IMG/VR virus record: IMGVR_UViG_3300012347_000112 | Coordinates: 2,448 to 66,447 of that record | DNA from: a virus | Lineage: Duplodnaviria; Caudoviricetes | DNA length: 64,000 nucleotides | Direction: 5' to 3' (one strand) | In this document: in pieces, positions 6,559-39,492 of the stretch | Layout of the letters: each line of letters starts with the position of its first letter | Numbering within the stretch: the first letter of the stretch is position 1 | Made by a program: the position numbers and the translations under genes | The notes under the pieces: generated by a model | The model's database searches: none | What the model saw: the letters and a program-made list of their open reading frames with translations, nothing else | Told to the model about the DNA's origin: nothing

Positions 6559-7692
6559 TTATAGGTATTGGAACCAAAAATCGCCGTCAACGCCCTGGCC
6601 CGAATTAGGGGTACTTGTGCTAATAAATCTATGGCTACCTTGCCACAGTGCGCTAGCTGCAACTTCACCTTGCACAAATGCTGTGGTTGCAATCTTAGTG
6701 CTGTTATCGCCGGTTGTAGGAGTTACTGATCTAGGAGTACCAGTTAGTGTAGGGCTGTTAATCGGGGCCTTGTCATTCAATCCATTTGACAGGTTAGTGC
6801 TTAATGCAGAAATATTAGCAGCGATGTTGGTGTCCACATACAAGCGTCTAATATCGTCTTGTGCCATCACATACGCAGTGGTTGCTAGCTGTGTGGTTCT
6901 AACTCCTGCGTTTGCAGTTGGCGCAACCGGAGTTCCAGTTAGTGCTGCATCAGCTGCATCGGCCTTTAAACCTAGGTCGTCGCTTACTGTGCTGGTTAAA
7001 CTTGCAATATTTGCAAGTATCGAAGTGTCAACATACAGTCTGCGGGTATCGTCTTGCGTCATTACATAAGCAGTTGTTGCAATAGTAGTTGAGCGATCGC
7101 CGGCGCTGGCTGTTACTGAACGAGGGTTGCCAGTAAGCACAGGACTTGCAATATTAGCTCTTAGTCCAATTTCAGTATTCTGTGTTGCTGCATTAGCCCA
7201 CAGGCTGGTAATTTCAGTATTCTGTGTTGCTGCATTGGCCCACAAGCTGGTAATTTCAGTATTCTGTGTTGCTGCATTTGCCCAAAGATTATTGATATGA
7301 GTTTGCTGACTTGCAGCATTTGATGTTTGTGCAGCGGCATTTGAAATAATAGCCGAGTTCAAAGTGCTGACATTTGCTGCAATTTTTGCTTCTATAGCTG
7401 CAACGTTTGCTGCCAATTGCGCAGTGCTAGCAATACCTGTAAACTGAGCACCGTTGTATACGTTAATTAGCCCTGTTGCAGAATTGTACCACAGTTGCCC
7501 AGTAATAGGGTTAGTGGGACTGGTTGTTCCAGCAAAGTTTTCTAATAGATAGACTTGGTTCTCGTTTAAGAATTGTCCGTATCCAGGAAAGTTCCTACCT
7601 GCTAACGTCAGTGATGTAGAGGTGTTGTCACGCTCGCCATCTGGGATAGTGTTTAGTAGGGTAGAATTGTAGCGATTAATAGTGTATGACAT
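6559..7692 (-). CDS. Baseplate/tail fibre protein (paralog)
   Basis: Same N-terminal module, a coiled-coil, three LTGxP...IATTA(Y/F)V fibre repeats, and C-terminal DGDFWFQY. Confidence 0.7.
   Translation of the reverse strand: MSYTINRYNSTLLNTIPDGERDNTSTSLTLAGRNFPGYGQFLNENQVYLLENFAGTTSPTNPITGQLWYNSATGLINVYNGAQFTGIASTAQLAANVAAIEAKIAANVSTLNSAIISNAAAQTSNAASQQTHINNLWANAATQNTEITSLWANAATQNTEITSLWANAATQNTEIGLRANIASPVLTGNPRSVTASAGDRSTTIATTAYVMTQDDTRRLYVDTSILANIASLTSTVSDDLGLKADAADAALTGTPVAPTANAGVRTTQLATTAYVMAQDDIRRLYVDTNIAANISALSTNLSNGLNDKAPINSPTLTGTPRSVTPTTGDNSTKIATTAFVQGEVAASALWQGSHRFISTSTPNSGQGVDGDFWFQYL
7168..7287. repeat. 42-nt coding tandem repeat, ~2.8 copies (SLWANAATQNTEIT)
   Basis: AATTTCAGTATTCTGTGTTGCTGCATT starts at 7168, 7210 and 7252. 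Confidence 0.9.
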
Positions 7693-7743: not shown

Positions 7744-8952
7744 CTATAGTTTTGTAACCTGCACAAAAAACTTGTTATTTTCTGTAGTAAGCTCTATTCT
7801 ACGCTTAACTACCGGGGTGTCAACGTAAACAAATTGGTATGTACTAAACAATTTACGAAGTATCCTAGGTGCCACATACATGCTAACCGCAGATCCAGTA
7901 CAAGCACGACTGCCGCCGCCAAAGGGAATATAACTGCCTTTTTTAATCGACGACATGCCGCGTTCGAATCGCTCAGGGGTAAACAAGTCTGCATCTTCCC
8001 AATTTTCAGGGCTTCGATGTGTTTGGCTCACCCCAACGATTACTGTAGGATCTTTCTTGCCAAAGTGGAACGGGCACTTGCGAACTGGCTCATAGGTTAA
8101 CATGTGAAATGGTGGGTATAACCGTAAAGTTTCAATGTATGCATGTCTGCTGTAGGTTTCACTGTTGCGTAGCTTAGAGTGTACCGCAGGAGTTGATCCA
8201 ACTGTATACACACTCCACATTAGGGAAATTGCCAGAGTGTTTGCCCCAATAAAAGCTGCGCGAATTTCCCCTAGTACTTCAGCGTGAGTTAGCTCACCCG
8301 TTGCTTCGTGCTGCTTCAACGACTCAAGAAGGCCACCAGCTGCTGGTGTTGCAGTGTGGTAAACAAATTCAGCAAGTTCTGCAAATTGTTGATTTTTTCT
8401 GTGCAGGCGTGGGCTTAACATGTTTTTTAACCAGGACGGCAGAGGAAAGTAGTTGAGTATAAATATCTTTTCAAACGATTCCTGGGTTAGGCTTTTGTTT
8501 ATACTTCGAGTCTCAATTCCCGTTGCAAGTTCTGAATCGGGCACTACGCCCAAATAATGTTCTACAAATGCTTGGTGCAAACTTTGTTTGATACAATCTA
8601 GAATATCAAACTTTCCGCTAGCACTGTTAATGTCAGCCGACAGTTGTGTCCATGTTGTATCTGCAATGCGTTCGTACACGCTATTGTTTAGATGCTTGGT
8701 AGTTATAGCACGTTTAATTGCTGCTCGGTCATCGGGCTGACTCACAGCCGCACCAACTGCACCATCGTGCTCAACCATTCGGCAACTAAGCGATGACCTG
8801 GTATAAGAAGGATTGTTGTACAGGGCCGCAATAGTAACAGGGTCCGAAGTTAATTTAAACTTGGACCCTAACCCTGTTGATTCGACTGTTTGATTTTTAA
8901 ACTTAGGCAGATTTGCTAATAGCTGCTTGAATCGATTTGCGTAAAATGCCAT
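7744..8952 (-). CDS. Cytochrome P450
   Basis: Heme motif PFGGGSRACTG (FxxGxRxCxG), K-helix ETLR (ExxR) followed by LYPP, FTPERF meander, I-helix-like AFIGANTL. Confidence 0.93.
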   Translation of the reverse strand: MAFYANRFKQLLANLPKFKNQTVESTGLGSKFKLTSDPVTIAALYNNPSYTRSSLSCRMVEHDGAVGAAVSQPDDRAAIKRAITTKHLNNSVYERIADTTWTQLSADINSASGKFDILDCIKQSLHQAFVEHYLGVVPDSELATGIETRSINKSLTQESFEKIFILNYFPLPSWLKNMLSPRLHRKNQQFAELAEFVYHTATPAAGGLLESLKQHEATGELTHAEVLGEIRAAFIGANTLAISLMWSVYTVGSTPAVHSKLRNSETYSRHAYIETLRLYPPFHMLTYEPVRKCPFHFGKKDPTVIVGVSQTHRSPENWEDADLFTPERFERGMSSIKKGSYIPFGGGSRACTGSAVSMYVAPRILRKLFSTYQFVYVDTPVVKRRIELTTENNKFFVQVTKL

Positions 8953-10480
8953 ACTTGATTTTTGCCTTTGCAGACGATAACTTTAACATGAAGTAAGCCT
9001 TAACGCAAGCATATTTGGCAAAATACGGTACGTGTTTGTTTTTGCTAACCAAATCAAAAATAGTTTCCACAATATATCGATCTGAGTAACGAGTAGCATG
9101 ACTATCAATTAATTTAACAGTGGCATACTTGTACAAGTTAATTGCTTCTGCGTAGCGTTCTTCTTTTATCAGCTTGGTAATAGGTACTAGTACATCAGCG
9201 TAAAAGTTTGTCCATTCAGCATTACGTTCAACAATTAGGGGAGCAACCTTATAGTACAACTGAACTGCTGCACGATCTTTGTCACTGTTCATCTGTGTGT
9301 CACGAACCATTCGCGCTAACGCTAGTTCTTCGCAATCGTCCGGCAATCCCATTGCCATAACTGTTGCTGTAGTCAAGAAGCAGCCTCCGCCGCCCCCGCC
9401 GCCTCCTCCGCCACCATCGCCGGTTTGGCCACCATCGCCACCAATACCATCGCCTGGCGTGCTGCTACCGCTACCTTGTGGAGCTCCTGCAGGATATGCA
9501 ATCTCAGGATATGCAGGTCCGTAGTTACCACCACTAAAAGTTGGCTCGATCGCCGGCGCTGCAAAGCCTTTAAGCGAACGCCACTGCCCGTTTACCTTAA
9601 CCCAGGCATTTTGCAAAGTCTTCCATTCGCCGGCTACCTTAACATAAGAAGAATTTAATCCCTTCCAGTCTCCGCCAACCTTTACACCACCGAATGTAGA
9701 TGCTGTAAATACCATTACTGCGCGGCCGCCGCCGCCATTGGCAATTGTGCCAACCCCAATTGGGCTAGACCAATATTGATTAGTTGTACCGTTGGGAGTA
9801 TTACCTACCGGTTGTACGCCGCCCGTAGACGATGTACCAGTATATCCGCCAAGTCCGCCTGAGCTATTATCGTAGCCCATTGTGCCACCAAAGCCGCCAA
9901 CGATACCGCCCCCGCCTCCGCCGCCTCCAGCGCCGTCACCATTGCAGTCTTGTCCGTTAGTTCCTTGAGAACCTGAACTAGGACTGTTGATTGTGTAGCC
10001 AGGGTTGCCTCCACGATTATTGGATCCACCGCCGCCACCGCCGCCCCCGGCTGCAACATACGCTTGGGTTCCGTTAATTACTACTGCGGTTGCTGCGCCG
10101 CCACCACCGCCACCGCCTGACCACCCAGACGGGCCTGCATTTCCGCCACGTGCTCCACCAAATGAATAACTGTTGCCATCGATGGTGATGTTGTATCGAC
10201 CACGGCCGCCGGTGCCTGCACCAGAATTAGTTCCACTGCCGCCTGCTAGGCCGCCCCCACCCACAGCCACGCTAACTGCATCGCCTTCGTTTATGGTAAT
10301 AGTTCCTGCCCAGTACCAACCGCCAGTGCCTGTGCCGCCCGGGCCATTTCCGTCTGCACCACCGCCGCCGCCGCCAGCGCCCCACATATATAATGCTACA
10401 TCAGAGTGATAGCCAGCTGGCATAGTAAACGACTGTGTGCCGCCTGTATAATCAAATGTTTTAACTACTGTATTTGCCAT
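8903..10480 (-). CDS. Gly-rich fibre/adhesin-like protein with C-terminal CFI-box-CTERM-like domain
   Basis: YMWGAGGGGG and poly-Gly blocks; three VKVxGxW(K/R) repeats; poly-Gly then CFLTTA...LPDDCEEL..AR..RD...YYKVAPLIV. Confidence 0.65.
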   Translation of the reverse strand: MANTVVKTFDYTGGTQSFTMPAGYHSDVALYMWGAGGGGGGADGNGPGGTGTGGWYWAGTITINEGDAVSVAVGGGGLAGGSGTNSGAGTGGRGRYNITIDGNSYSFGGARGGNAGPSGWSGGGGGGGAATAVVINGTQAYVAAGGGGGGGGSNNRGGNPGYTINSPSSGSQGTNGQDCNGDGAGGGGGGGGIVGGFGGTMGYDNSSGGLGGYTGTSSTGGVQPVGNTPNGTTNQYWSSPIGVGTIANGGGGRAVMVFTASTFGGVKVGGDWKGLNSSYVKVAGEWKTLQNAWVKVNGQWRSLKGFAAPAIEPTFSGGNYGPAYPEIAYPAGAPQGSGSSTPGDGIGGDGGQTGDGGGGGGGGGGGCFLTTATVMAMGLPDDCEELALARMVRDTQMNSDKDRAAVQLYYKVAPLIVERNAEWTNFYADVLVPITKLIKEERYAEAINLYKYATVKLIDSHATRYSDRYIVETIFDLVSKNKHVPYFAKYACVKAYFMLKLSSAKAKIKYGILRKSIQAAISKSA

Positions 10481-10486
10481 AATCTA

Positions 10487-11560
10487 TTATTGGTACTGGA
10501 ACCAAAAGTCTCCGTCTGACCCTTGCCCTGAGTCGGGTGAGTTTGTGCTAACAAATTTTCTGCTGCCATCCCAATACTGGGTAGCTGATTTTACAAAAGC
10601 TGTTGTTGCAAGTTTTGTACTCGTGTCACTTACTGGCCATGTTGTAGCAGTTGGCGAACCAATGAACGCAGGGCTGTCAATTGCTGCTTTTGCATTAATT
10701 GCCGCCGTTAGTGTATTAGACAACGATGTAATACTTGTAGTAACTGTATCATCAGTATATGCACGAGCCAGGTTATCTTTTGCTACCACAAATGCTGTAG
10801 TAGCAATTCGAGTTGAATTGTCAGCAGTTGACGGGGTAGTTGCAGTCGGCGTACCAGTTAGTGCTGGGGTGTCGAGTGTTGCATACGGAGTCAAGTCAGC
10901 TGAAGTGAGATAGCCTGCATTTTGAATCGACGTAATAGCATCAGCCTGTACACCGGCATTGCTCCATAAATTTGTTACCTCAGATTGCAGCGAGGAAATT
11001 GCAGAATTAGCGGCTGTTACATTGCTGTTTGTTGCCGCGATGCTACTTGCAAGCGTCCCAGCGTTTCCATTAATGGAAACAATACTGTTATTAATAGAAT
11101 TGATATTCCCACTAATTACTGTCAACTGATCATTCTGTACTGTTGCATTTGCCCACAGGTTTAAAATTTCTACTGACTGTGCTGCTGCGTTGGCTGTAGT
11201 TGATACTGCGTTTGCAGTAATCTGCGATTGTAACGCCAAAACATTTGCTGTTAGCTCTGATCTTAAATTGGTTACGCTGCTGCTTAGTTGGACTGCATTT
11301 GCTAGTGCGCAAAAAGTAGTTCCGTCATAATAGCTCAACGTATTAGCAGTAGTGTTATACCATAACTGGCCAGTCAATGGGTACAGAGGTGCAATATCGT
11401 TTGCAAAATTTTCAAGCAGATAAATGAAGTTTTCATTTTGTGCTGTGCCGTAGTTGATATAATTCTTACCAACTAGCTTAACCTGGTACTTGTCGTTGAC
11501 TGTACCGTCTAGCAAACTCACTAATTGCTGGCCATTTGTTTTGTTTATGGTATACGCCAT
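10487..11560 (-). CDS. Baseplate/tail fibre protein (paralog)
   Basis: MAYTINK...LVGKNY..YG..QNENF..LLENFA, a coiled-coil, IATTAFV repeats and C-terminal DGDFWFQY; same architecture as 6559..7692. Confidence 0.7.
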   Translation of the reverse strand: MAYTINKTNGQQLVSLLDGTVNDKYQVKLVGKNYINYGTAQNENFIYLLENFANDIAPLYPLTGQLWYNTTANTLSYYDGTTFCALANAVQLSSSVTNLRSELTANVLALQSQITANAVSTTANAAAQSVEILNLWANATVQNDQLTVISGNINSINNSIVSINGNAGTLASSIAATNSNVTAANSAISSLQSEVTNLWSNAGVQADAITSIQNAGYLTSADLTPYATLDTPALTGTPTATTPSTADNSTRIATTAFVVAKDNLARAYTDDTVTTSITSLSNTLTAAINAKAAIDSPAFIGSPTATTWPVSDTSTKLATTAFVKSATQYWDGSRKFVSTNSPDSGQGSDGDFWFQYQ

Positions 11561-13268: not shown

Positions 13269-16200
13269 TTAATCTTCCTTAGTTAACAGTTGAGAGTTTT
13301 CTGTCATCAATACTGTATTTACTGAAACTTCATCTTCGGTGCTGTAATAGTCATCAAAGCTCAAGGTATTCAATCCAGCGCCTTGTCCCAGGAACGCACG
13401 AGCTGGTAAGCTGCCCGAGTCTTGGAACTGTAGACCTTGTACAAACAACACTGGGTCAAGCCATGCTAGCGAATCTTGACGTATAACAACGTTTGATCCA
13501 GCATTTGCTGTTACTGTTACATTACCGGCTGCGTTAACTGCTCCCAAAATACCAATGGCATTTGCAGAGATATTAGATACTGTGCCATTGATACTGAATA
13601 CACAGTTTGCATTAGCAGTAGTAAAGCTACCCGAATTGAATGTAACCGCAACAGATTTCTGTAGGTCCACGTTTCCACGTACCACTGCGTTACCGCTACT
13701 AAACGCTTGAGTAATGATATCTCCAACATTCACAGTAATGTTTGCATTCAGTGTGATTTTATAAGTTGGATTATCCACTGTAGTAAACTGTGACGTAGAC
13801 GCATTAGCTCTCCAGTAGTTAATTCCCACGTTACTGCTGTATTCTTCGTTAGTTGAAATGATTGCAGTACGAGACTTGATGTCTGGAATAACTTGATCTA
13901 CGCTAGCATCATATACTGTCGTAAATGCTGGATGTGCTTGACTTGCTGTGCCACCAACACCTCGACGTATGTTACGCAATGAGTTAGTTTCTACATCATT
14001 TTCCCAGTAGGTAATCTTTTCGCCGCCAATAAACACTACACCAGGGATAGCACGGACTAGATCCGGGATTGGTAATGCGCTTGAATCGCTTACAAAAATA
14101 ACATCCGAGTTGTATGTTAACGCACCTACAATGTAAGTAGTAGCAAATCCGCTAATTCTGTAATATTCGTGGCCACCATTGATGTCCATAAACTCACGAT
14201 ATGCCAATGATGCACCACCCGGCTTAACAGTCAAGTTACTCGAGCTTTCAACTTCGGCAGTGAACACGCTAATGTCAATGCTTTCGTGTAATACACCAGG
14301 CAATAACTCTTCAGGCGCATGGCTTGAGTAGTAGTCAATGTACGCACCACCATCAATGATAATGTCTTCTGGACGGATACCCAGTCCAGTGTCAACATAA
14401 CGACTTTGGATAACAGAATCAAGTAGTGACTGATCTTTAACGTTTGCGTTAAATGGCAGACCTTGTACACTTACGCCTGGGTACTCAATGCCTTTTACAT
14501 ATTGAGTTAGCCAAAAACGGTTAGATAGTGTGCTTGCAACTTCCTGGCCTAACGCAGTCGCTAGGTCTAGATTGTTCTGTTGGCGGCTAGCAATGTATGC
14601 GATAATTCTATCGTTAGTATTGCCGACGTCAGCGCCAGTTAACAACTCAAATGCATCAAAGTTAAAGTTTGCTGCTGCTGCAATGTTGCCAGTAGCAACG
14701 TAGGCATCACCGTTAAACGCAACAATGTCACCATCTTGATAACTGCTGGTAGCATTCCAAATTTGTACGCTACTGTCGTATGCAGTACGATCAAATTTCA
14801 ATACGCTGTCGAACTGTCGAACTGTTTTGTTTGAGATTCGTGCTGCTGCCAGTCCACCTGTACCAGTTCCATTGATAGATACCAATGGTCGGCTGGTGTA
14901 TCCGCTTCCGCTGTTGGTTACAGTGATAGAACGAATTGCACCATTACCCCAGATATTTGCTGTAGCAGTTGCACCTGTACCACCACCACCGCTGATAGTG
15001 ATAATTGGCTCAATTAAATAGTCCTGACCGTGGCTTGATAGCTCAATACTGTCAACTTCAAATGTGTGATATTGCTTCCAATATTGATACTCTGGAGTAT
15101 TGTTGATTAGTGTAGTGTCGATTGACAGTTCTCCACTCGGAGGACGATACATTGCTAGAGACTTGTTGTACAAGCTAGGCAAGTCAAAGTCAGTGACATT
15201 ACTTTCAACAGTGTCGTTACCAGTATAGTCAACTACATATTCACGGACAATAGTACGGTATGGTTTAACTTCGTTAATATAATCCAAGTAGTAGTCTTGG
15301 TTATCAAGAACAAAGCTCGGTGGCTGGTTTAGTTCACGTAAAGTGTGGAAAATTCTAATAAAGCTGGTCTTGAAAATCCAGTCAACACTTGTTTGTTCAT
15401 GTAGGATGTAATTAACCAGTACAAAGAATAGTTTGTTAAACTCATCGCCTAGGTTGTTGATAAAGATGTCGTCGCGCAGGGCCAATAAGATGTTGCGAAT
15501 TTCAATACTTGGTGTTTGATCAAAACGCACAGTGTCAAATCGGTCTTCGTCCCAGCCCATTTGACCAGCTGGCAAATCGTACAGAGTATTGCTCAATTGG
15601 ATTGTTCCGTTTTGGATTCCAACTTTAGTTAGGGTTAAATTAGCGTTAACACGATAAATTGCAAACTGTGCATTGTCGTCGTAGTTAACACGGATAATTT
15701 CCCCAGGCGCAACACTTAACGCCGCAATATCTTTGTATGCCGCTACTGTGTAGTTGATACGACTTGTTGGGTCGTAGTCGCTTGCAAACCAGTCAACCTT
15801 AGACCAGTACAATTGTGTGTTGTAGTACTGGATGCGATGGGTCTTAAAGACTCTGTTGCTGTTGAGTTTATAGATTGTCCATAGACCGTTGTTGCTACTG
15901 TCTCCAGTTACAAGAACTCTATAACCAATTGGGATACCTGACTCTTCTCTTACGTCGATGTAGCCAATTTCTTCAACTGTTGGGACAACTTTATCGTACT
16001 CAGTTACTGCTGGAATTGGATCTTCTTTTTCCATTCCCAATAGACTGTATTGATAAACAACTGGGTGCTTAATTAATACATTGTTTACATAGTTAACAAA
16101 GTTCTCAACAGCTTTAGCACGGTTTAAGATCATTGTTTGACGTGGTCTGATATTGATACCGATTTTATTAGCAGGTGTCAGTGACGGGTCAGGCACAACT

Positions 16201-19200
16201 TGACCAACTTGGTCAACACCACTCAAGCTATCAATCAATTTAGTAATGATACGCTCAGGCACACGGCTGTTTGGATCGTTTTCGTTTAACAGTTCGTACT
16301 CGGTGTGTACATTATTGCGATTATGCATCTTTTGATAATCAATATGCAGCACAGTGTCGGTGCCACTCAAGTACGGTTGTACGTTAACTACACCAATAGA
16401 ATTGGTTTTCATCAACATTGCATAAGGAACACCTTGCAACTGTGGGTTTTCAATGATGTCAGCTAGTGTTTTAACACTGTAACGCTTGCCACGAGCAGCA
16501 TTCTCTTTGTTAGTGACCCAGAAATAATACAACGAAGTCACGTTGCCACCAATAACTGTAGTTACAGTAGAGTAAGCTCCGTAATTCAACGGGATACCAT
16601 CACCTCCGTTGCTTATGTACTGCACTGGAGGATACTTGCTTTCGACCCATTCGCAAACAGTAACTTGGCTACCAGGGAAAATCTTACCCCAGTTGTTGCT
16701 GCGGTATACAAGATCATCTTGCTCGTAGTCGATGTAGCGTAGGTTTTCTAGATTCCACCAGATCTGACCAACTTGGCGTTCGTTCCAGTAGTAGCCTGCA
16801 TTAAATGCCGAGCTGCTTGAAGACCCAGTGTTATAAATTGCAGGATCTACACTGGTTTTAAAATCAATGTCTTGTTCTGCAATGCCCAAGATCTTGCCCT
16901 TGACTGGATCAATGTAGTCCAGGCTGGCACTAATAACTTGAGTATTTTTATTGTACAAGAAGATTTTATTGATGTTGTCTAGGTCAACAGCTTCGTCTTG
17001 TTGTCTAATTTTATCCCAAGATGTTTTAAACTCTGGGTTAGCGTATGTATACACCGCGCCAGAATTTTCTACTGCTGCGCTGTAATCAGTACCTGGTGCG
17101 CCAACAAGGATCAAGTCTTTATTAATGTCTGCTGATGCGCCAAATCCATCGTTGGATTCCAGCGAGTCAGACTTGATATGCTGTGCATAGCTCATTGATC
17201 CGGTGTTTTCGCTGCCAGTCAATGAATTAGTTAGTAGTTCGTACACATATACTGACCCGGTGGACTTAACATAATCAATCATACGAGTTGACGATTGATC
17301 AAATGTTGTTGTTCCGCCATCAATTTCAGTTACGTAGTAAACGTCGTCTGCATCGCTAGTCACTAGCAATGTATTAGTAACCGGACAGTAACGTACATTT
17401 TTAGCAAACCCAGTGCCAATGCTACCATCTGGATGACTAATGATTTGATCTAAGCTGAATACTGATAAACCAATGTTGTCAAACAAATTAGTTTCGTTTG
17501 TTCTAATAGATAGTTTATTATTTTCAACTACGCTTTGAGACACAATCTCAATGAAGCCACCTGCAACAGTAGTTGCTGTAACCATTGGGATTTTCTTAGC
17601 GTTAATTAGCTCAACGCAGGCAGACGGTGCAACATACCCGTTGTCATCAATTGCAGTACTAAGGTCAACCCAGTAGTTGTTGATGTACAACCCGATGTCG
17701 CTGTCGAATGTAGATCCAGAATCTACTAGAGTTTGGATGTACTCAACAACGTTAGTTGCTGTTACTTTTCCTAAAATCTTGCCTGTGTCAGTGTATCGGT
17801 ATACTGCGCCTGTCTTGCCTGACGCAAGTGTCTTGCCCGATGCTCCAACAAAGATTGACGATCCATTGATGTGATCAATTGCAACTTGACTACCAAACAA
17901 AGCGCCCGATTGTTGATCAGGGTCAACAAACTTTTGTACCATAACGTAGCTATCGCTAACTACCAGGATAACTCTGCCCAATGCCAATGCATCGTTAAAG
18001 CTTAACACTGTGTCGTTTGTAACTGTATATGCATCAGTTGATTGTAATTTACCGTCCACGAATACCTTGGTTAAACTTGTAAATGGCTTACCAAATACAT
18101 AGGTGTTTTCCAAGTCACTTAGATAAGATTGTTCAAACAATTTATACACGTAGACTGCGCCAGAATTGTTGTTCTCACCTGGTGCGCCAACAACAACTGT
18201 GCGGCCATTGTCTGTTGTAGCAACTACGTTACCAAATTGGTCTCCTGACACTGCTGTGTTAGATGTTATGCTGATGTTTGCATAAGCATAGTGAGGGCGC
18301 TGTGTAATTGAGATATTCGCAAACGAGCTTCCTGACGATACTGATGGCGGGTTAACAAAGGTCAACACGTTGCCCGACAGGGTATAATCCAAGTTCGGGA
18401 TGTAATTCTTATCCATATCAACCAGTGCCAATGCCCCGATGCTGTCAGGTGTATATGACAATCTATATGAGTCTGAATCAACTTGTAAAGTTACAGGATA
18501 GGTGTTTGAAGAGAACACAAACGAACTAACTGCTGCACCGGCCACATTGCTAATAGTAATAGTTGCACCGTTAACCGCTGTAACTGTTGTGCCTACTGGA
18601 ATAGCGTTACCTGTTGCTGCTGTGACGCTAGCGCCAACATCAACCCATGCGTTAGCAGATAGCAATGTAATTGTCTGTGTACCTGATCCTAGTGTACCAG
18701 CTAGTGAAACATTAGATTGACCAAGCATCGCTGTACTCAATACCAATGTAGTTCCGTCAACGTCAGACACAGTAGTCGACGCTTGTACTGCTGAGCCATT
18801 TAGTTGTGTTACTGCAAATCCCGACTTGATTCGGTTAATATCTATACTAGAATCTAGTGTGATGTTTGCTGTGTTAATTACGCCATTGGCCGACAGGTAA
18901 ACAGTGCCAGTCAATGATAGATCGGTGCTAGTACCATAGGTAATTGTGCTGCTTCTGCTGTCAACAGTCTTGCTGTAGTAAACGTGTACTTTGTTCTCGC
19001 CAGGAGCGCCAATGTACAACAAATTGTTGTCAGTACTGATGCTAGTCGATTTGCCAAAGTAGTTGTTGGCGGCTGCTGAATTTGATCTGATAGTTTGTGT
19101 AGTACCAGTTCGCAGATCGTAAACAAATACATAGCCTTCGTTGCTATTACTAGCAGGTGCTCCGACTACAATAGTGTAGTCACTAACGCTAATTGACGAA

Positions 19201-22200
19201 CCGTAACCAGCTGAGGTATTAGCTCTTGCTTCCAACTTGCTGGTTTGAGAAATTTTGCCATATACTCTTGAGAACGTCTTAACAGAGCCAGTTGATCCGT
19301 TACGGTTAACCAAGTTTGGCATACCCACAAAGAAGTTGTTTGCTAAACGGTTGCTGGTAACTGTTGTACCAAAGGCTGCGCCTTGGCTAATCGCTTCATC
19401 AGTGATAGTGGTATCAGTTGCCCAGGCATTAATCTTGTTAAACACGCCCCATTGGTTTGTGCTAGTTGCGTTGTCAACCCACAACTTGTCTCCTGGTTGC
19501 CATCCATTCAATGGGATAATACCATCAGCCTGTGTTAGATCAGTTAATCTTGCTGACTGTAGTTTGTATAGTACTCCATAGCCGTTAACACTTTGTAGTT
19601 CTTTAATTGTTTCAATTTTGTATTGAGTTACGTCAATGCTCTGTGCATCAGTTCCTCGTAGAGCAACTTGCACACTGGTGCGACTGTTAACTGAATACAC
19701 TTGATAGAACCCATTGAATCTTGTGTCGAATGCTTTAACTGCAAATACGTCTCCAATCTTCAATTCTGGATCATCTGTAAAATTAATAGTAATTAAACTA
19801 TCAATGTTGTAACTGAAGTTTGTTACGTTTACCTGTGTTTCAGTAACACGGTATACGTTCCACTCTTCGGTGTAGTCTTTTGCAACCCAGATGTAGTAAC
19901 CAGGGCCAATGTTATCTAATGCAACATCTAGATCATTGAAGGATGCAAAGCTAAACAGAGTATTCTTTACATCACTCAAATTAACGTAACCGGCTGTTTC
20001 AATATCATTAATGGTGCTGGTAATTTGATTACGATTGAAGAATAAATTCTTATTGTAGTTTGCAGGTGCGCGATATAGATCAACTGGCTTGTATCCAATA
20101 ACGCCAGACTGCGATGCAGCATCTGGGCCATTCAGGAATTCAATTGCAGTTGGGTTAGCTGTGATAGCCGACTCGTCTAGTAGCAGCTCAACTGACTGGT
20201 CGCTGTTTAGCGATCCATATTCGCCCACACGTAGTGCCCATTCTTCGTAGATGTTAATGTCGCTGGTTAGGTCGCCAGTTTGCGCACTGGTCAAACCAGT
20301 GATTGCGTTTAGTGTGCCTTTTTCTTTGATGAAGCCTTGGTAGAACTTAACCTGACTAGTCTCGTCTAGTCCAAAGTTGCTCAAGTACGGACGTTTGCGG
20401 AAACCAATTAAGCTAGTACCGTAACCTTCAATTGTTGAGTCAGCTGGTAGATTGTCTACGTCATATGCTTGTTGCAAGCGAGTTGCATTGTATGCAAAGT
20501 TTGGCAACAGACCAGTTTTAACTTCATTGCGATCAATCTGACGCCATTGTTTATCTTGAACAAATGTTGCCGATCCTGCAATATTGCCTAGTGCAGCATA
20601 GTATTGATTTTTGTATTCTACAATACTGCCCAGTAGGTAATCCACGCCTGGTTGCCACGAATCAACGTGTGCATTGTTGAAGACAAAACCTGGTGGGTTA
20701 AATGCACCGGTCCAGCCGCCAGTTTTACTGCCAATTAGTTTCAAACGGAATTGACGGTTACCTAGTTCAGGAACATAGATAATGTCATTGAACACTGTAA
20801 CGTTGTCAAACAAAATAACATGCTCGTACTGCACAACAGTAAGTTCCGCAAGGCAAATTGTCTTGCCTTCAACAGCAGTAAGTTTGAAGTTGTTGCCATC
20901 ACGCATTTCTGTAAACTGAGTGCTCTTGATGAAGTTACCATCTTGATCTAATACTTTTGTTCCCGTTGGAGTGCTTTCGATCGGAGACACTACACCAGTG
21001 GTTTGAGAATTAATTAGCGTGTCAAATGCAGGACTCAAGATAATGATACTGCCCTCTTGCCAACCTTGCTGACTCCAGTTCAAAAATTCCTTGGCGCTCA
21101 ATGCCCAGTTGCGAGGTTCGCCTAGGTTTTCATCGTGTACGTCAAATCTAAATCCTTGTCCTACTAAGTGACGGCCGTATCCGATTAAGAAGTCAACTAC
21201 TTCCTGAGTAGTAGAAAATTCATAACCGTATGGAATGGTTAGTTTAATCGGTTGGTAGTCTTTGTAGATAATCCCACGTCGGTTTAACGAAGTGATTGTA
21301 TAGAAGTTATTGTTAACTAGACTTGGAATAATTGTGAAATACGGGCTGCTTTGATTGTAGCCGTTGACAGTGTATCCATTTTCTGTACGTTGGATTGTTA
21401 CTGCACTGTACACAATCTTCTTGATAGGAGTGCTTGCGTTAAGCTGGATACTGTAGTTTTCTGTTGGAAGAACAATACTGTTATTTGTATTTGTTGGAGA
21501 ACCCTGCTCCGCTAATACCTGTATAAACTTTTTATCAGTGTAGCCACCAACTTTGTAGCCTAACTGGATGTTGACATTGTCAAAATATTTTTGCAGCTCA
21601 GTTACTGGATCAATACCAATGTTTAGCAGATAATCTCTTACCCAGTTTAGGTAACCGGCACTGCGCACAATTTCGTCACCTGTTGTATCACCGTTGATAA
21701 CAATCGAAGTTGGGGTGATGCGTTGGTATGTGTTTTGATCAACCAATTGATCAATTGCTGCATCTCTGTAATATCTGTCAATGTTTATTAAACTACCAAA
21801 GTAGTATCCAGGCTTGGCTAATGCCAGTGCATACTGCATAGCAAACGGAAAACTACTGCTGGTTCTCCATGCAAATTCAACAGGACCTTGATCGCCTACT
21901 GCGTAGCTGGCATTAGCACGTTGACTGTCAAATGTGCTAGTAGCCCATTGCTCAGGGCTTAGTAGATCGCCGTATGCGTCTACAGGAATAATTTTGCTCA
22001 AGCCAGGGCGAGCAAAACGTGTATCAATACCTGCGCGGTCCCCGGCATGGATGTAGCCTGCTTCCAAGTCATCCCATAGCAGTGTGTTGCTACCAGTGTA
22101 TGGTGCTGCGCCGTAACGGGCCTCCCACCATAATGGCTTTTTACCGAAGCCCAACATTTCCCACGGATGTGTGTTTGGGCGATATGTATCAAAGAAGTGA

Positions 22201-25200
22201 GTAAAGATTGCTCGCCATGTACCTGGCAAGAAAGCTCCATCAACACGGTCTTTAAATTTCTTATAGTTCCATGTCCACGGATCGTTACTTGCGAAATACT
22301 TGTTGGTACTGTAGTCAACTTTATTGTCACCTACCCAACGCAAGAATCTATTTCCCAGAATCTGTGTAAACTCAGTCAGAGAATAATCAGTTGTACGGAA
22401 CTTGCCAGGCAAATGATCATATAGATCAAAGATATGTGTTTCGTAGTCGATCTTGATGTTGTTATAGATTCGCTTTTCTAGTTCCAACAACAGGTCGTCA
22501 CGGATATCGTTAAACACCGGTGTAATCGATCCGTCGTGACCTTGGATTACTTCAACTGGTGTGATATAGCTGTTGTCAACGAAACGCTGAGGAACAAACT
22601 TTGGATATAGTCCCAGCTTACTTGGGGTCTCAGGAACAAAACTTCCGTCAGTGTCGTGATACTCAACAATTTTAATTAAGTCGCCAGCAACTAGTGTAAT
22701 GTCAGCATCAAGAATAATTGCAGAACGGTCTTGTGGGAACGTGAAGTCAATTCCGTTGATCAATTGAGCGCCGTTTAAGTATACTAGAACAGCTTTGTTG
22801 CTCAATGCAGTATCGTTAAACACCTGTGTAATTTCGTACTGTTTCAAGAACGGATTGATAACTGAATATGTGATAATATTTGCGTTATCACCGTAAGGAA
22901 TCATGTCGCTGTAATACCACGGGAATGTTTTATTTTTAATTCCGTTGATATTCTTTAAGATTGCGTCGACCCCGCCCGGGATGTTATCGCTAGAGATTTC
23001 GTTCAGTCTAGTAGCTAGTTCTAAGAATTTGTTTTTAAATCTAGTGTATTCCTTGGATGCCAAGTCTACACCATTGACAAAGTTAAGCTTCTTGTCAGTT
23101 AAGAAGATGTTACTATACATTGCCGGCGAAGCTTGTTGTACAATGTTTCCACCGTTGCTCTTGTACTCAATGTCTCTTAGGCCTGTAAAGTTTCCGCTAT
23201 ATGTTGCCTTGGTGTTTTCTACAATAGTCTTAATATGGTTTCTGATTTGGCCCAATGTCAGTGAGCTAAATGATGCGTTTTTACTGTTGTAGTCTAGGTT
23301 GTTAGGAATTTCGTAGTAGCCAAGTTTACTTGGTGTAGTGCTATAGATTAAGATATCAACTTTGTCGCCATTGGCTAATAAATTGATATTAACTCTCACA
23401 GTGCTACGAGCACCAACTGTTGCAAATTCGTAATCAGCAGAGTTCAACAATGTGTTGTTAACAAACACCTTGGTGTAGGGAACAGTTGCTTCTTCGGCTG
23501 GCGCAATGTCAACTGGGAAGTAGTTAGACGAAGTATCGTACGAGTATGAGAAAATTTGATACTGCTTGGTTTTCTCTGCGTTCTTAACCCAGATGTTGCG
23601 ATTTTTGTAGCTAGTTAAGTCTACGTTTTGGCGCAAGAAATTATGGTTGATTGGTAGCGATACTGTACTTGGCCCAATTGCGTAGGTAATGGTATCAGTG
23701 TCGAAGTTGTTGGTAAATTGGATGTCACCAATACTGTTGAAGTTTCTGTAGCTCAACGGGAATCCTAAAACACGATCGTTTGTGCCTGTTCCGTGAGTGT
23801 ATGAAAAAATCTTTGTACCTGTGAAGTTAGAAACTGGGTATGCACTAAGCTGGCTTAGACTTACACCGCTTCCGTCAATGACGTCAAACAACGGTGCTTG
23901 GTTAATGCCAGTTTTAAGTTGACCACGAACCCATGTTGACCCGTTGTAGTAAAAATTAAGTCCTGCATTTGCGCCTTTGATAACGTTTACGCCGTTACCT
24001 TCTGCAATAGCGTAGTCGTCGGCTAGTACCAGGTGTAGTTTGCTGTCACTGATATTCCCGCCAGTTACGTCAATACGATTTACAACATAGATACTGTTGC
24101 GTACTGATGGGTCAAAGTCATTGGCAAAAATGACTCTATCGCCTTGGGTAAAGGTTATTCCGCTGACGGTAACACTGGTGTTACCATTCATCAATGCGCC
24201 TTCAACTACGTTCATTGCGTCAGTGATTGCGTTGCTATTAACTAGAATATCAATTGGCGCTTTAGCTACTCGGCAAGCATTAAACAGTTGCAAGTGGCCT
24301 TCAAACTCAATGATTGGGCGTTGTGCTCTTAGGGTTTGATCAGGCAGCGCAACTTCATTGTTATATGCTGCGGCAGCATTAATAACGTCAATGTGGAACC
24401 AACGGTTGCTGCGGCTCCATGCGTTTGAGTCAATGCTGTCTCGAGAAATTGTAATGTAGTCCGGGGCATTAATACCCGATGCAGCGTATGCTTCAGGTGT
24501 TACCAGTTCGGCTGCTTTTACTAGTGTAATTGCTTTGCCCACTCCCTCAACATAGTACTCATTGTTTGCATACTCTGGCTGAGTTACTGTGTCATCGAAT
24601 TGAATTTTAAGACCGTTTGAGAAGGTAACCCCGTTAGGGCTAGTGTAGGATTTTTGTCCAACAATGTCGTTGTTAACGTCAATGGTCGATCCAACTGCAT
24701 CAACAATTTGAATTACACCAAATAGGTTAGGGTCAGTACCATCTTGATAGTACAAACGATCTAGTGTACTAGAGATAAAAGGAACGCGATTATAGAAACC
24801 GCTGCGGTCCATGAAAAATTCAGTGGTAGCATAATTTACGCCGCTCTTTACATAGATGCGTTCGTTAATATCTACTGCAATGTCGGGTAACAACATTACT
24901 AGATAGTCGCCATCGCCAGTATCGTGCAACTCAATGGTCCAAGTGCCTTTACGTTCTGCTGCGCCAACAACAGCTCCGACAGTGTAATAGTTCGTGTTTA
25001 AGGTTTCGCCGGTGTCAACTTCCATTGACGGTGTGGTCCAGAATGCATCGTCCTCGTAACGGCCAATGAATGCCAGTGACTTTTTGTTCAAGTCGGTGAT
25101 AACGCTGTCAAACAAGTCAGTCTTGGTTTCTAGTAATGTGCTTAGTAGTTTATTTTGAATATCAGCATAGCTGTACTCTGTTACCACGTCAACGCTGGCT

Positions 25201-38475: not shown

Positions 38476-39492
38476 ATGAGTAACCTATTTAAGAAAGCCG
38501 CAGTCTTCACTGACATCCACTTTGGTCTAAAGTCAAACAGTCAACTCCACAACGAGGACTGTTTGAACTTTGTAAAGTGGGCAACAGCCAAAGCACAAGA
38601 AGAAGGGTGCGAAACTTGTCTCTTCCTAGGCGATTGGCACAATAACCGAGCTAGCATTAACATCCTAACTCTACAATACAGCTTACAAGCGCTGGAACAC
38701 CTAAATGATAATTTTGAAACTGTTTATTTTATTCCTGGTAACCACGATTTGTACTATCGTGACAAGCGGGACGTCCAATCTGTGGAATGGGCAAAGCATT
38801 TATCGAACATCAAGATATGCAATGATTGGTTCACTAGCGGTAATGTGGTTATCGCTCCTTGGCTTGTGGCTGAAGACCATAAGCGAATCCCTAAGCTAAA
38901 AGGCAAGTATATGTTCGGGCACTTTGAGCTGCCCGGATACTTAATGAATGCTATGGTAGCTATGCCCGAGCACGGCGAGCTCAGAGGCGACGACTTCCAG
39001 GGTTTTGAACATGTGTTTAGTGGACACTTTCACAAGCGACAAACACAGCGCAACATCACTTATGTAGGTAACTGCTTTCCACACAATTATGCAGACGCCG
39101 GTGATGACGATCGCGGCATGATGATCCTAGAATGGGACAAGCAGCCCGAATTTCATGCATGGCCCGACCAACCCAAATATCGTGTGTTTAACTTGAGTGA
39201 CGTTATTAATCATACCGAGGCTATGCTCAAGCCTGGTATGCACTGTCGCGTTAACCTGGACATTGATATCAGCTACGAAGAAGCTACGTTTATTAAAGAA
39301 ACATTTATTGACACCTACAAGCTACGTGAGATTACGCTAATTCCTGCCAAAGTTACTGAGCTAACCGAATACGAAATACAAGGCAACATCGAATTCGAAA
39401 GTGTTGATCAAATTGTAGCGAGTCAACTTACTACACTAGAAAACGGCAAGTTCAATAAGAATCTATTGCTAGACATTTATCGCAATCTTTAA
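38476..39492 (+). CDS. gp47: Recombination endonuclease subunit (Mre11/SbcD-like)
   Basis: Metallophosphoesterase motifs FTDIHFG, LGDWHNN, PGNHD, GHFE, SGHFH. Confidence 0.95.
   Translation: MSNLFKKAAVFTDIHFGLKSNSQLHNEDCLNFVKWATAKAQEEGCETCLFLGDWHNNRASINILTLQYSLQALEHLNDNFETVYFIPGNHDLYYRDKRDVQSVEWAKHLSNIKICNDWFTSGNVVIAPWLVAEDHKRIPKLKGKYMFGHFELPGYLMNAMVAMPEHGELRGDDFQGFEHVFSGHFHKRQTQRNITYVGNCFPHNYADAGDDDRGMMILEWDKQPEFHAWPDQPKYRVFNLSDVINHTEAMLKPGMHCRVNLDIDISYEEATFIKETFIDTYKLREITLIPAKVTELTEYEIQGNIEFESVDQIVASQLTTLENGKFNKNLLLDIYRNL

What the first reader, a model, noticed from the sequence alone, without database searches (positions are those of the whole stretch)
7744..8952. Cytochrome P450 embedded in, and co-oriented with, the tail-fibre genes
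Seen: an intact P450 (FGGGSRACTG, ETLR, PERF) between fibre genes, its start overlapping the upstream Gly-rich gene by 50 nt. There is no obvious membrane anchor and no ferredoxin or reductase in the window. The I-helix reads AFIGANTL, lacking the acidic residue of the canonical (A/G)Gx(D/E)T pair. Known: P450s are rare in bacteriophages, and some P450s cross-link or hydroxylate peptides. Inference: a late-expressed tailoring enzyme acting on a virion protein (perhaps its neighbour) or on a host lipid or envelope molecule, possibly with non-canonical oxygen activation.
Basis: partly seen in the sequence, partly recalled or inferred. Interest (0 to 1): 0.85.

Follow-up and report, generated by a model that had tools for sequence, protein, structure and literature searches.

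The report
Phage P450 wedded to fibre tail-domain
A jumbo phage carries an intact cytochrome P450 that, wherever it has been sequenced, directly follows and usually overlaps a gene for a tail-fibre, baseplate or pilus-locus protein ending in one particular C-terminal domain, so it is probably a dedicated partner of that protein and not a stray metabolic gene.

Summary
Window 7744-8952 (minus strand) encodes a 402-aa P450 with an intact Cys pocket, ExxR and PERF. It sits among tail-fibre genes and overlaps the upstream Gly-rich gene by 50 nt. No ferredoxin, flavodoxin or reductase is in the 66-kb record.

New here: the P450 belongs to a sharply separated clade of about 19 clusters. All members lack the I-helix acid. 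The clade is absent from the species-representative genomes, GenBank phages and PLSDB plasmids searched.

In 14 distinct loci the gene 5' of the P450 ends in Gly-run + CFLTTA + a ~150-aa helical "long CFI-box" tail. Its stop overlaps or abuts the P450 start. The N-terminal parts fall into three unrelated classes: Gly-rich fibre, DUF4815 baseplate protein, and small secreted protein in type IVb pilus loci.

In tail-seeded searches, 4 of 4 long tails have the P450 and 0 of 18 short CFI tails do. One orthologous pilus locus has a Hint module in place of the tail and keeps the P450.

dN/dS is 0.06-0.13.

Best reading: a tail-directed maturation enzyme. The chemistry is unknown.

The scan noted CFI-box tails on other DNA before, but not the P450 link.

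The parts
7744..8952 (-). Cytochrome P450, 402 aa (P0001), stand-alone, no signal peptide or membrane anchor
   Evidence: Pfam PF00067 66.9 bits; AF2 pLDDT 87 and P450 fold; clade under purifying selection, dN/dS 0.06-0.13
7894..7923 (-). Heme-thiolate Cys pocket FGGGSRACTG (Cys351)
   Evidence: F344, G345, R349 and C351 are invariant in 16 clade members and kept in all 19
8233..8256 (-). I-helix AFIGANTL: Asn238 in place of the acid, Thr239 kept
   Evidence: All 19 clade members have N/S/H/T at the acid position plus a one-residue deletion. The 25 nearest outgroup P450s read AGHDTS, AGHDTC or AGSETT. It aligns to GHETVA of CYP175A1
8122..8133 (-). ExxR motif ETLR
   Evidence: E274, L276 and R277 invariant
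7966..7977 (-). PERF motif
   Evidence: P326 and R328 invariant
8903..8952 (-). 50-nt overlap of the carrier 3' end with the P450 start (P450 in the +1 frame)
   Evidence: Overlaps of 14-50 nt, all equal to 2 mod 3, occur in the other phage loci; in L092 the genes abut in frame
8903..10480 (-). Carrier gene: 525-aa Gly-rich fibre-like protein (P0002) ending in the long CFI-box tail
   Evidence: phrog_29022 virion structural protein, weak; NCBIfam NF041770 CFI_box_CTERM 24.1 bits, below the cut-off of 40
9383..9415 (-). Run of 11 Gly directly before Cys367
   Evidence: Translation; a Gly-run precedes the Cys in every locus
8906..9382 (-). Long CFI-box tail domain (res 367-525): CFLTTATV, DDCEEL, AR..RD, then seven helices ending in a long basic amphipathic helix
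   Evidence: Alignment A2 has 34 invariant columns. AF2 pLDDT 81.5, all-alpha. No solved relative by fold or sequence
6559..7692 (-). Tail-fibre gene directly downstream (context)
   Evidence: PHROGs tail-fibre families, E down to 8.6e-22
10487..11560 (-). Tail-fibre gene directly upstream of the carrier (context)
   Evidence: PHROGs tail-fibre families, E 2.3e-18

Best explanation
The gene encodes a working heme-thiolate P450 of a new family, so far seen only in phages and type IVb pilus loci. It is the fixed partner of a 'long CFI-box' C-terminal tail domain carried by receptor-binding or baseplate proteins. Shown: the two genes are co-oriented and overlap. The tail is the only part the different carriers share. 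The P450 occurs with long tails and not with short ones. Both evolve under constraint and in parallel. Inferred: the pair is co-transcribed and translationally coupled. The tail, especially its extra ~50-aa C-terminal helices (and largely its second Cys), recruits the P450. The P450 then carries out an oxidative step needed to mature the carrier, at or near the Gly-run/Cys-Phe junction or on the tail itself. After that the tail is probably removed, as the interchangeable Hint module suggests. Electrons would come from host ferredoxin or flavodoxin, or from peroxide. The missing I-helix acid points to altered proton delivery.
For: The P450 is real. It forms a discrete clade: bit scores drop from 136 to 84 and the clade sits on a long branch with 100% SH-aLRT support. 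Selection is purifying: dN/dS 0.06 and 0.13. In 14 distinct loci the 5' gene ends in Gly-run + CFLTTA + long tail and overlaps or abuts the P450 start. The carriers fall into three unrelated classes. Tail-seeded sampling gave P450 next to 4 of 4 long tails and 0 of 18 short tails (Fisher p about 1.4e-4). Only 19 of 4126 CFI-tail relatives carry the long form, about the same as the ~19 P450 clusters. Identity matrices of P450 and tail correlate, r = 0.87, Mantel p about 2e-4. The clade is absent from GenBank phages, PLSDB plasmids and the GTDB species genomes scanned by motif.
Against: There is no biochemical evidence and no complex model; multimer folding was not available. In the pilus loci the carriers have apparent Sec signal peptides (by eye) while the P450 has none, so direct contact there would have to precede export. 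The locus type with a Hint module in place of the tail still keeps the P450, so the P450 cannot depend only on the helical tail. Adjacent genes are expected to share history, so the Mantel result is weak on its own. No Rosetta-stone fusion was found (weak evidence).
Confidence: 0.45

Rival explanations
1. Hedgehog-like adduct transfer. The tail, or the Hint module that can replace it, forms a thioester at the Gly|Cys-Phe junction. The cytoplasmic P450 hydroxylates a lipid or other small molecule, which then serves as the nucleophile that ends up esterified to the carrier's new C-terminal Gly.
For: The G-C-F junction is invariant. An orthologous pilus locus has a true Hint module at the same junction. 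The P450 has no signal peptide while the pilus carriers are exported, which suits a diffusible product. The nearest solved folds and sequences are lipid, carotenoid, sterol and fatty-acid P450s: CYP175A1, CYP97, CYP90, CYP102, CYP4, CYP51. The Hedgehog GCF autoprocessing site is cited from memory.
Against: The tail is all-alpha with no invariant His or Hint-like catalytic blocks. Nothing shows thioester chemistry. The fold neighbours are only ~15% identical and say nothing about substrate. Short CFI tails manage without any P450.
Confidence: 0.15
2. Non-catalytic partner. The P450 fold serves as a chaperone or assembly factor for the carrier, as P450-derived activators such as EryCII and DesVIII do for glycosyltransferases (cited from memory).
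For: Strict pairing with a structural protein. No redox partner in either phage record searched. The acid of the acid-alcohol pair is lost clade-wide.
Against: The Cys ligand, the FG.G.R.C.G loop, ExxR and P.RF are kept in all 19 members. The known non-catalytic homologues have lost the Cys (from memory). The TIGR04515 match is negligible: 13.8 bits against a cut-off of 343.
Confidence: 0.12
3. A moron or auxiliary metabolic gene that happens to sit in the plastic fibre region and acts on host metabolism or the host envelope independently of its neighbour.
For: Tail-fibre regions are common insertion sites. The fold resembles lipid-acting P450s.
Against: The same overlapping partner recurs across 30-100% identity, three carrier classes and two kinds of element. 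No clade member was found in the cellular genomes scanned.
Confidence: 0.08
4. Pseudogene or assembly artefact.
For: None found.
Against: The frame is intact, all motifs are present, dN/dS is 0.06-0.13, and the synteny recurs in independent assemblies.
Confidence: 0.01

Closest known systems
Cytochrome P450 superfamily (Pfam PF00067), E-class-like; nearest solved sequence CYP175A1 of Thermus thermophilus (1n97, 1wiy)
   Same: P450 fold, Cys-pocket loop, ExxR, PERF, and ~400-aa soluble bacterial size.
   Different: Only the C-terminal half aligns by sequence. Identity to solved P450s is about 15%. The I-helix lacks the acid and has a one-residue deletion. The clade sits on a long, fully supported branch. 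By the usual 40% identity rule (from memory) it would be a new CYP family.
Previously reported viral P450s (giant viruses, Ranid herpesvirus 3, Mycobacterium phage Adler; PMC9405906)
   Same: Virus-encoded P450 with no viral redox partner.
   Different: Those are not reported as coupled to a structural gene. This one is fixed to a virion-protein tail domain. BFVD viral P450s match only at the fold level, 12-19% identity. The only GenBank-phage tblastn hit, phage Y1, is an unrelated high-GC gene with no CFI tail.
CFI-box-CTERM domain (NCBIfam NF041770), the domain of the partner gene
   Same: Gly-rich linker, then CF(L/I)(A/T)TA, LR.FRD and YY..AP.I, at the protein C-terminus.
   Different: The score is below the curated cut-off (24.1 against 40). 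The P450-linked form has an extra ~50-aa helical extension. It has a second invariant Cys (DDC) where the phage short tails mostly read DDG. Only 19 of 4126 relatives have the long form. Four full-text searches found no paper on the domain.
Peptide- or protein-directed P450s recruited by a recognition element (RiPP P450s such as ApyO; glycopeptide Oxy P450s recruited by the NRPS X-domain; from memory)
   Same: A P450 genetically tied to the polypeptide it would act on, with a dedicated non-substrate domain as a possible docking site.
   Different: The ApyO model scores 59 bits against a cut-off of 525. The would-be substrate is a 300-1500-aa structural protein, not a short peptide. No aromatic cross-link motif is evident.
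Self-removing C-terminal modules of fibres and adhesins: Peptidase_G2/S74 intramolecular chaperones and Hint/Hedgehog modules
   Same: C-terminal position after a linker on fibre proteins. Two neighbouring fibres in the window carry Peptidase_G2 IMC domains. A Hint module replaces the tail in an orthologous locus.
   Different: The tail is an all-alpha bundle with no fold match. Cleavage is not shown. None of the known modules needs a P450.

Membership tests
Cytochrome P450 (PF00067) | Profile score above the curated threshold | tested here: met
   66.9 bits against a cut-off of 22.8; 61.3 bits in the six-frame search
Cytochrome P450 (PF00067) | Heme-thiolate loop FxxGxRxCxG with the ligand Cys | tested here: met
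   FGGGSRACTG; F344, G345, R349 and C351 invariant in the clade
Cytochrome P450 (PF00067) | K-helix ExxR and the PERF meander | tested here: met
   ETLR and PERF; E274, R277, P326 and R328 invariant
Cytochrome P450 (PF00067) | P450 three-dimensional fold | tested here: met
   AF2 pLDDT 87, pTM 0.88; Foldseek TM 0.64-0.78 to many solved P450s, E about 1e-12
Cytochrome P450 (PF00067) | Reduced-CO absorbance at 450 nm | not testable with these tools
   Needs purified protein
Canonical O2-activating P450 monooxygenase | I-helix acid-alcohol pair (A/G)Gx(D/E)T | tested here: not met
   IGANTL in the window. The acid is absent in 19 of 19 clade members; the alcohol is kept in 18 of 19. The 25 nearest outgroups are canonical
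Class I/II P450 system | A ferredoxin, flavodoxin or reductase partner encoded nearby or fused | tested here: not met
   Five partner families are absent from the 66-kb record, and three of them (Fer2, Fer4_15, flavodoxin) from the 59-kb G001 record. No long fused form was found. Both records are fragments, so a distal partner is not excluded
CYP152 peroxygenase (NF053744) | Equivalog score | tested here: not met
   33 bits against a cut-off of 600
RiPP P450 ApyO (NF050147) | Equivalog score | tested here: not met
   59.2 bits against a cut-off of 525
CFI-box-CTERM (NF041770), partner gene | Profile score above the cut-off | tested here: not met
   24.1 bits (window) and 28.7 bits (L092) against a cut-off of 40. 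A profile of the tail does retrieve >4000 C-terminal CF(L/I)TTA domains
CFI-box-CTERM (NF041770), partner gene | Gly-rich linker, then the CF(I/L)xTA motif, at the C-terminus | tested here: met
   GGGGGGGGGGG-CFLTTATV at res 356-374, and the domain runs to the stop codon
Hint/Hedgehog autoprocessing module (for the tail) | Hint beta-fold with catalytic blocks | tested here: not met
   The tail model is all-alpha. hhalign to the Hint-bearing P0127 matches only the junction. P0127 itself is Hint by Atlas features 0.94 and structure TM 0.80-0.83
Hint/Hedgehog autoprocessing module (for the tail) | Cleavage at Gly|Cys | not testable with these tools
   Needs protein mass spectrometry

The most novel reading that the evidence does not exclude
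The long CFI tail and its P450 form a new protein-maturation chemistry for receptor-binding organelles, meaning phage fibres and baseplates and type IVb pili. Two versions are open. In one, a Hedgehog-like transfer attaches a P450-made hydroxylated lipid or cofactor to the carrier's C-terminal glycine at the Gly|Cys-Phe junction. In the other, a P450-driven oxidative backbone cleavage or cross-link occurs at that junction. Either would also give the first functional handle on the very widespread CFI-box domain, which has >4000 representative clusters and no known mechanism.
Probability: 0.15. Interest if true: 0.95.

Novelty: new variant of a known kind. Interest (0 to 1): 0.8.

Why it matters
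P450s are almost unknown in phages, and none has been tied to virion assembly. Here a heme enzyme is genetically locked to a C-terminal domain of fibre, baseplate and pilus-locus proteins. That implies oxidative maturation, or an equally unexpected partnership, in building host-recognition structures. The pair is small (about 560 residues for tail plus P450) and can be tested in E. coli. It offers the first experimental entry into the CFI-box domain family, which is catalogued and very widespread but has no known mechanism. It also defines a new CYP family with a systematically altered I-helix.

Tried and rejected
1. DNA and protein searches of 50,697 GenBank phages with the locus, the carrier and the tail found nothing. 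The single P450 hit, Pseudomonas phage Y1, is an unrelated high-GC gene with no CFI tail.
2. PLSDB plasmids hold no pilus-type P450.
3. The genome-contig scan returned only generic P450s, at most 32% identity over 165 aa for the top hit.
4. The tail fold search gave only helical noise: Foldseek best E 0.68, VIA best Z 5.8. The PDB sequence search gave nothing. The ESM Atlas gave only unnamed clusters at 0.83.
5. The literature has no paper for 'CFI-box', CFIATAA, CFLTTA or NF041770, and none linking a P450 to tail fibres.
6. The T4 late-promoter motif TATAAATA occurs once, on the wrong strand, and below chance.
7. The small protein after the P450 was considered as a third cassette member. It is conserved only in DUF4815-type loci and absent from the window.
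8. Programmed frameshift fusion of carrier and P450 was considered because all overlaps put the P450 in the +1 frame. No slippery signal was seen and no fused protein was found, so it is left open.
9. The careful phylogeny did not finish in time, so the quick IQ-TREE result is used.

Full report
**1. The observation**

The ORF at 7744-8952 lies on the minus strand, co-oriented with all genes from 3 to 37370. It encodes 402 aa.

Pfam p450 scores 66.9 bits against a cut-off of 22.8.

An AlphaFold2 model built on a 16-sequence alignment has pLDDT 87 and pTM 0.88. It superposes on many solved P450s at TM 0.64-0.78. The closest solved sequence is CYP175A1.

The upstream gene (8903-10480, 525 aa) overlaps the P450 start by 50 nt. 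The flanking genes are tail fibres by PHROGs, and two of them carry Peptidase_G2 intramolecular-chaperone domains.

The window is part of a 66,447-b IMG/VR record that CheckV rates 19% complete. It encodes T4-type portal, prohead protease, gp23 capsid, baseplate and gp5-like spike proteins. Its capsid protein is 68-70% identical to those of the jumbo phages Vibrio 2.275.O (349 kb) and Pseudomonas PA5oct (287 kb).

No Fer2, Fer4_15, flavodoxin, Pyr_redox_2 or NAD_binding_1 gene is in the record.

**2. A discrete, constrained P450 clade**

The protein search gave about 19 clusters with full-length similarity (30-67% identity, 136-601 bits). Scores then drop to generic P450s at 84 bits or less.

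In a quick ML tree the 19 sequences sit on a long branch with 100% SH-aLRT support.

All 19 keep the Cys pocket, ExxR and P.RF. All 19 lack the I-helix acid (N, S, H or T instead) and carry a one-residue deletion there. The 25 nearest outgroups read AGHDTS, AGHDTC or AGSETT.

dN/dS is 0.06 (L002 vs L003) and 0.13 (L172 vs L174). Synonymous sites are saturated between the window and its relatives.

The motif-seeded scan of species-representative prokaryote genomes found no clade member. PLSDB has none. GenBank phages have none, apart from an unrelated gene in phage Y1.

**3. The key result: an obligate two-part cassette**

In every locus where upstream DNA exists, the gene 5' of the P450 ends with a Gly-run. 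This is followed by CFLTTA(T)V, DDC.EL, AR..RD and a ~150-aa helical domain. That gene's stop overlaps the P450 start by 14-50 nt, or abuts it in L092. The loci are the window, L002, L003, L010, L004, L011, L092, L172, L174, L175, L176, L178, L183 and L184.

This domain gives sub-threshold hits to NCBIfam CFI-box-CTERM, both in the phage and in the pilus locus.

The parts N-terminal to it fall into three unrelated classes:
- a Gly-rich fibre-like protein (the window type);
- a 1300-1500-aa DUF4815/phrog_358 baseplate-module protein that follows gp6-, wedge- and gp8-like genes;
- a small protein with an apparent Sec signal peptide (judged by eye) that follows the PilS pilin and a PilV-like gene in R64-like type IVb pilus loci.

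So the tail plus the P450 travel together while the carrier changes.

A profile of the tail finds 4126 representative proteins. Only 19 of them match the full length. The rest match just the first ~110 positions.

Sampling seeded by the tail alone gave a clean split. All 4 long tails (L178, L182, L183, L184) are followed at once by a clade P450. None of the 18 short tails has one: 17 IMG/VR loci on 485-1314-aa phage proteins, plus L180.

Identity matrices of tail and P450 correlate (r = 0.87, Mantel p about 2e-4). Adjacent genes would be expected to show this anyway.

The tail model is all-alpha with seven helices and pLDDT 81.5. It has no relative among solved structures. It has 34 invariant columns, including two Cys and many charged residues but no His.

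**4. The Hint variant**

Pilus loci L007-L009 are orthologous to L092: the PilV-like gene is 37% identical (E 3e-83), and the carriers share the signal peptide and the FADDDE start.

After a Ser/Asp/Gly linker, however, their carrier continues GGS-CFIGSTLINLGDG. This segment is a Hint module by three sub-threshold Pfam Hint-clan hits, by ESM Atlas features (0.94, ten of ten best named hits in the Hint clan) and by structure (TM 0.80-0.83).

The P450 is still there, 15 nt after that carrier's stop codon. This domain swap suggests that the tail's own job resembles that of Hint, namely processing at Gly|Cys, and that the P450's role goes with that event. This is an inference and has not been shown.

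**5. Mechanism**

What is shown is the co-orientation, the overlap, the exclusive co-occurrence and the constraint.

What is inferred is translational coupling, docking of the P450 on the long-tail-specific helices, and an oxidative step in carrier maturation. I give this reading 0.45.

Against direct action: the pilus carriers look exported while the P450 does not. This keeps a small-molecule or lipid route alive (Hedgehog-like adduct supply, 0.15). A non-catalytic partner role (0.12) is disfavoured because the heme-binding residues are fully kept. A hitch-hiking metabolic gene (0.08) is disfavoured by the linkage.

The missing acid, the absence of redox partners in the two partial phage records searched, and an Fe/Mn superoxide dismutase ~2.7 kb downstream of the P450 in L178 make a peroxide-driven or otherwise non-canonical cycle worth testing.

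**6. Comparison and novelty**

The library searched mentions viral P450s only from giant viruses, a herpesvirus and Mycobacterium phage Adler, none with a viral redox partner (PMC9405906). No paper was found on the CFI-box domain or on a P450 in a fibre module.

Earlier notes of this scan had catalogued CFI-box tails on adhesins and phage fibres as a widespread domain of unknown mechanism. None of these notes had the P450 link or the long/short split.

The protein is a member of the P450 superfamily but lies outside any named family tested. The cassette is, as far as I could find, undescribed.

I rate it a new variant of a known kind, with interest 0.8.

Noticed in passing
L178:14039-20482 (124-kb phage contig): About 2.7 kb downstream of that locus's P450, on the opposite strand, lies an Fe/Mn superoxide dismutase. 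It is flanked by an IscA-like Fe-S assembly gene and three radical-SAM genes, one of them B12-binding. A peroxide source near an acid-less P450 is suggestive but is a single case.
   Followed up: no
L092:8818-9408: In the pilus locus a 2OG-Fe(II) oxygenase gene overlaps the P450 stop, and a DUF6817 gene follows. That is a second oxygenase in the same operon.
   Followed up: partly
L011:5515-13701: phrog_358 is a 2056-position family. Here its N-terminal part (1505 aa, ending in the CFI tail) and its C-terminal part (679 aa) are separate genes, with the P450 and a conserved 140-aa gene between them. The cassette appears to sit at a split point of a large structural protein.
   Followed up: partly
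L185-L201 (17 IMG/VR loci): Short CFI-box domains (the segment from CF to the stop is 97-228 aa, reading DDG where the long tails read DDC) after a Gly-run lie at or near the C-terminus of many large phage proteins (485-1314 aa), with no P450 nearby. The CFI-box appears to be a common C-terminal module of phage structural proteins.
   Followed up: partly
In relatives L002 and L003 this block is followed by radical-SAM genes (three in L002, two before the locus ends in L003), which here would lie left of the window.
   Followed up: partly
window 13269-25961: A single 4230-aa ORF on the minus strand, directly upstream of the fibre genes. Not analysed.
   Followed up: no
window 39492-40370 and 42133-42996: Two radical-SAM genes are interleaved with the Mre11-like (38476-39492) and Rad50-like (40380-42149) genes.
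   Followed up: no
window 8903-8952 and the equivalent junction in the other phage loci: Every carrier/P450 overlap (14-50 nt) equals 2 mod 3, so the P450 is always in the +1 frame of the carrier. In L092 the two genes are in the same frame, separated only by the stop codon. This is probably shared ancestry, but a minor fused product by recoding is not excluded.
   Followed up: partly
L183:5634-6065: The 143-aa gene after that locus's P450 looks by eye like a free-standing CFI-like helical domain (YY..DP.IV, then W and Y positions) without the CF start.
   Followed up: no
L181 (Pseudomonas phage Y1, OQ572403.1 42661-51236): The only GenBank-phage P450 hit lies in a high-GC, host-like stretch of an UNVERIFIED, unannotated record. 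It may be host DNA rather than a phage gene.
   Followed up: partly
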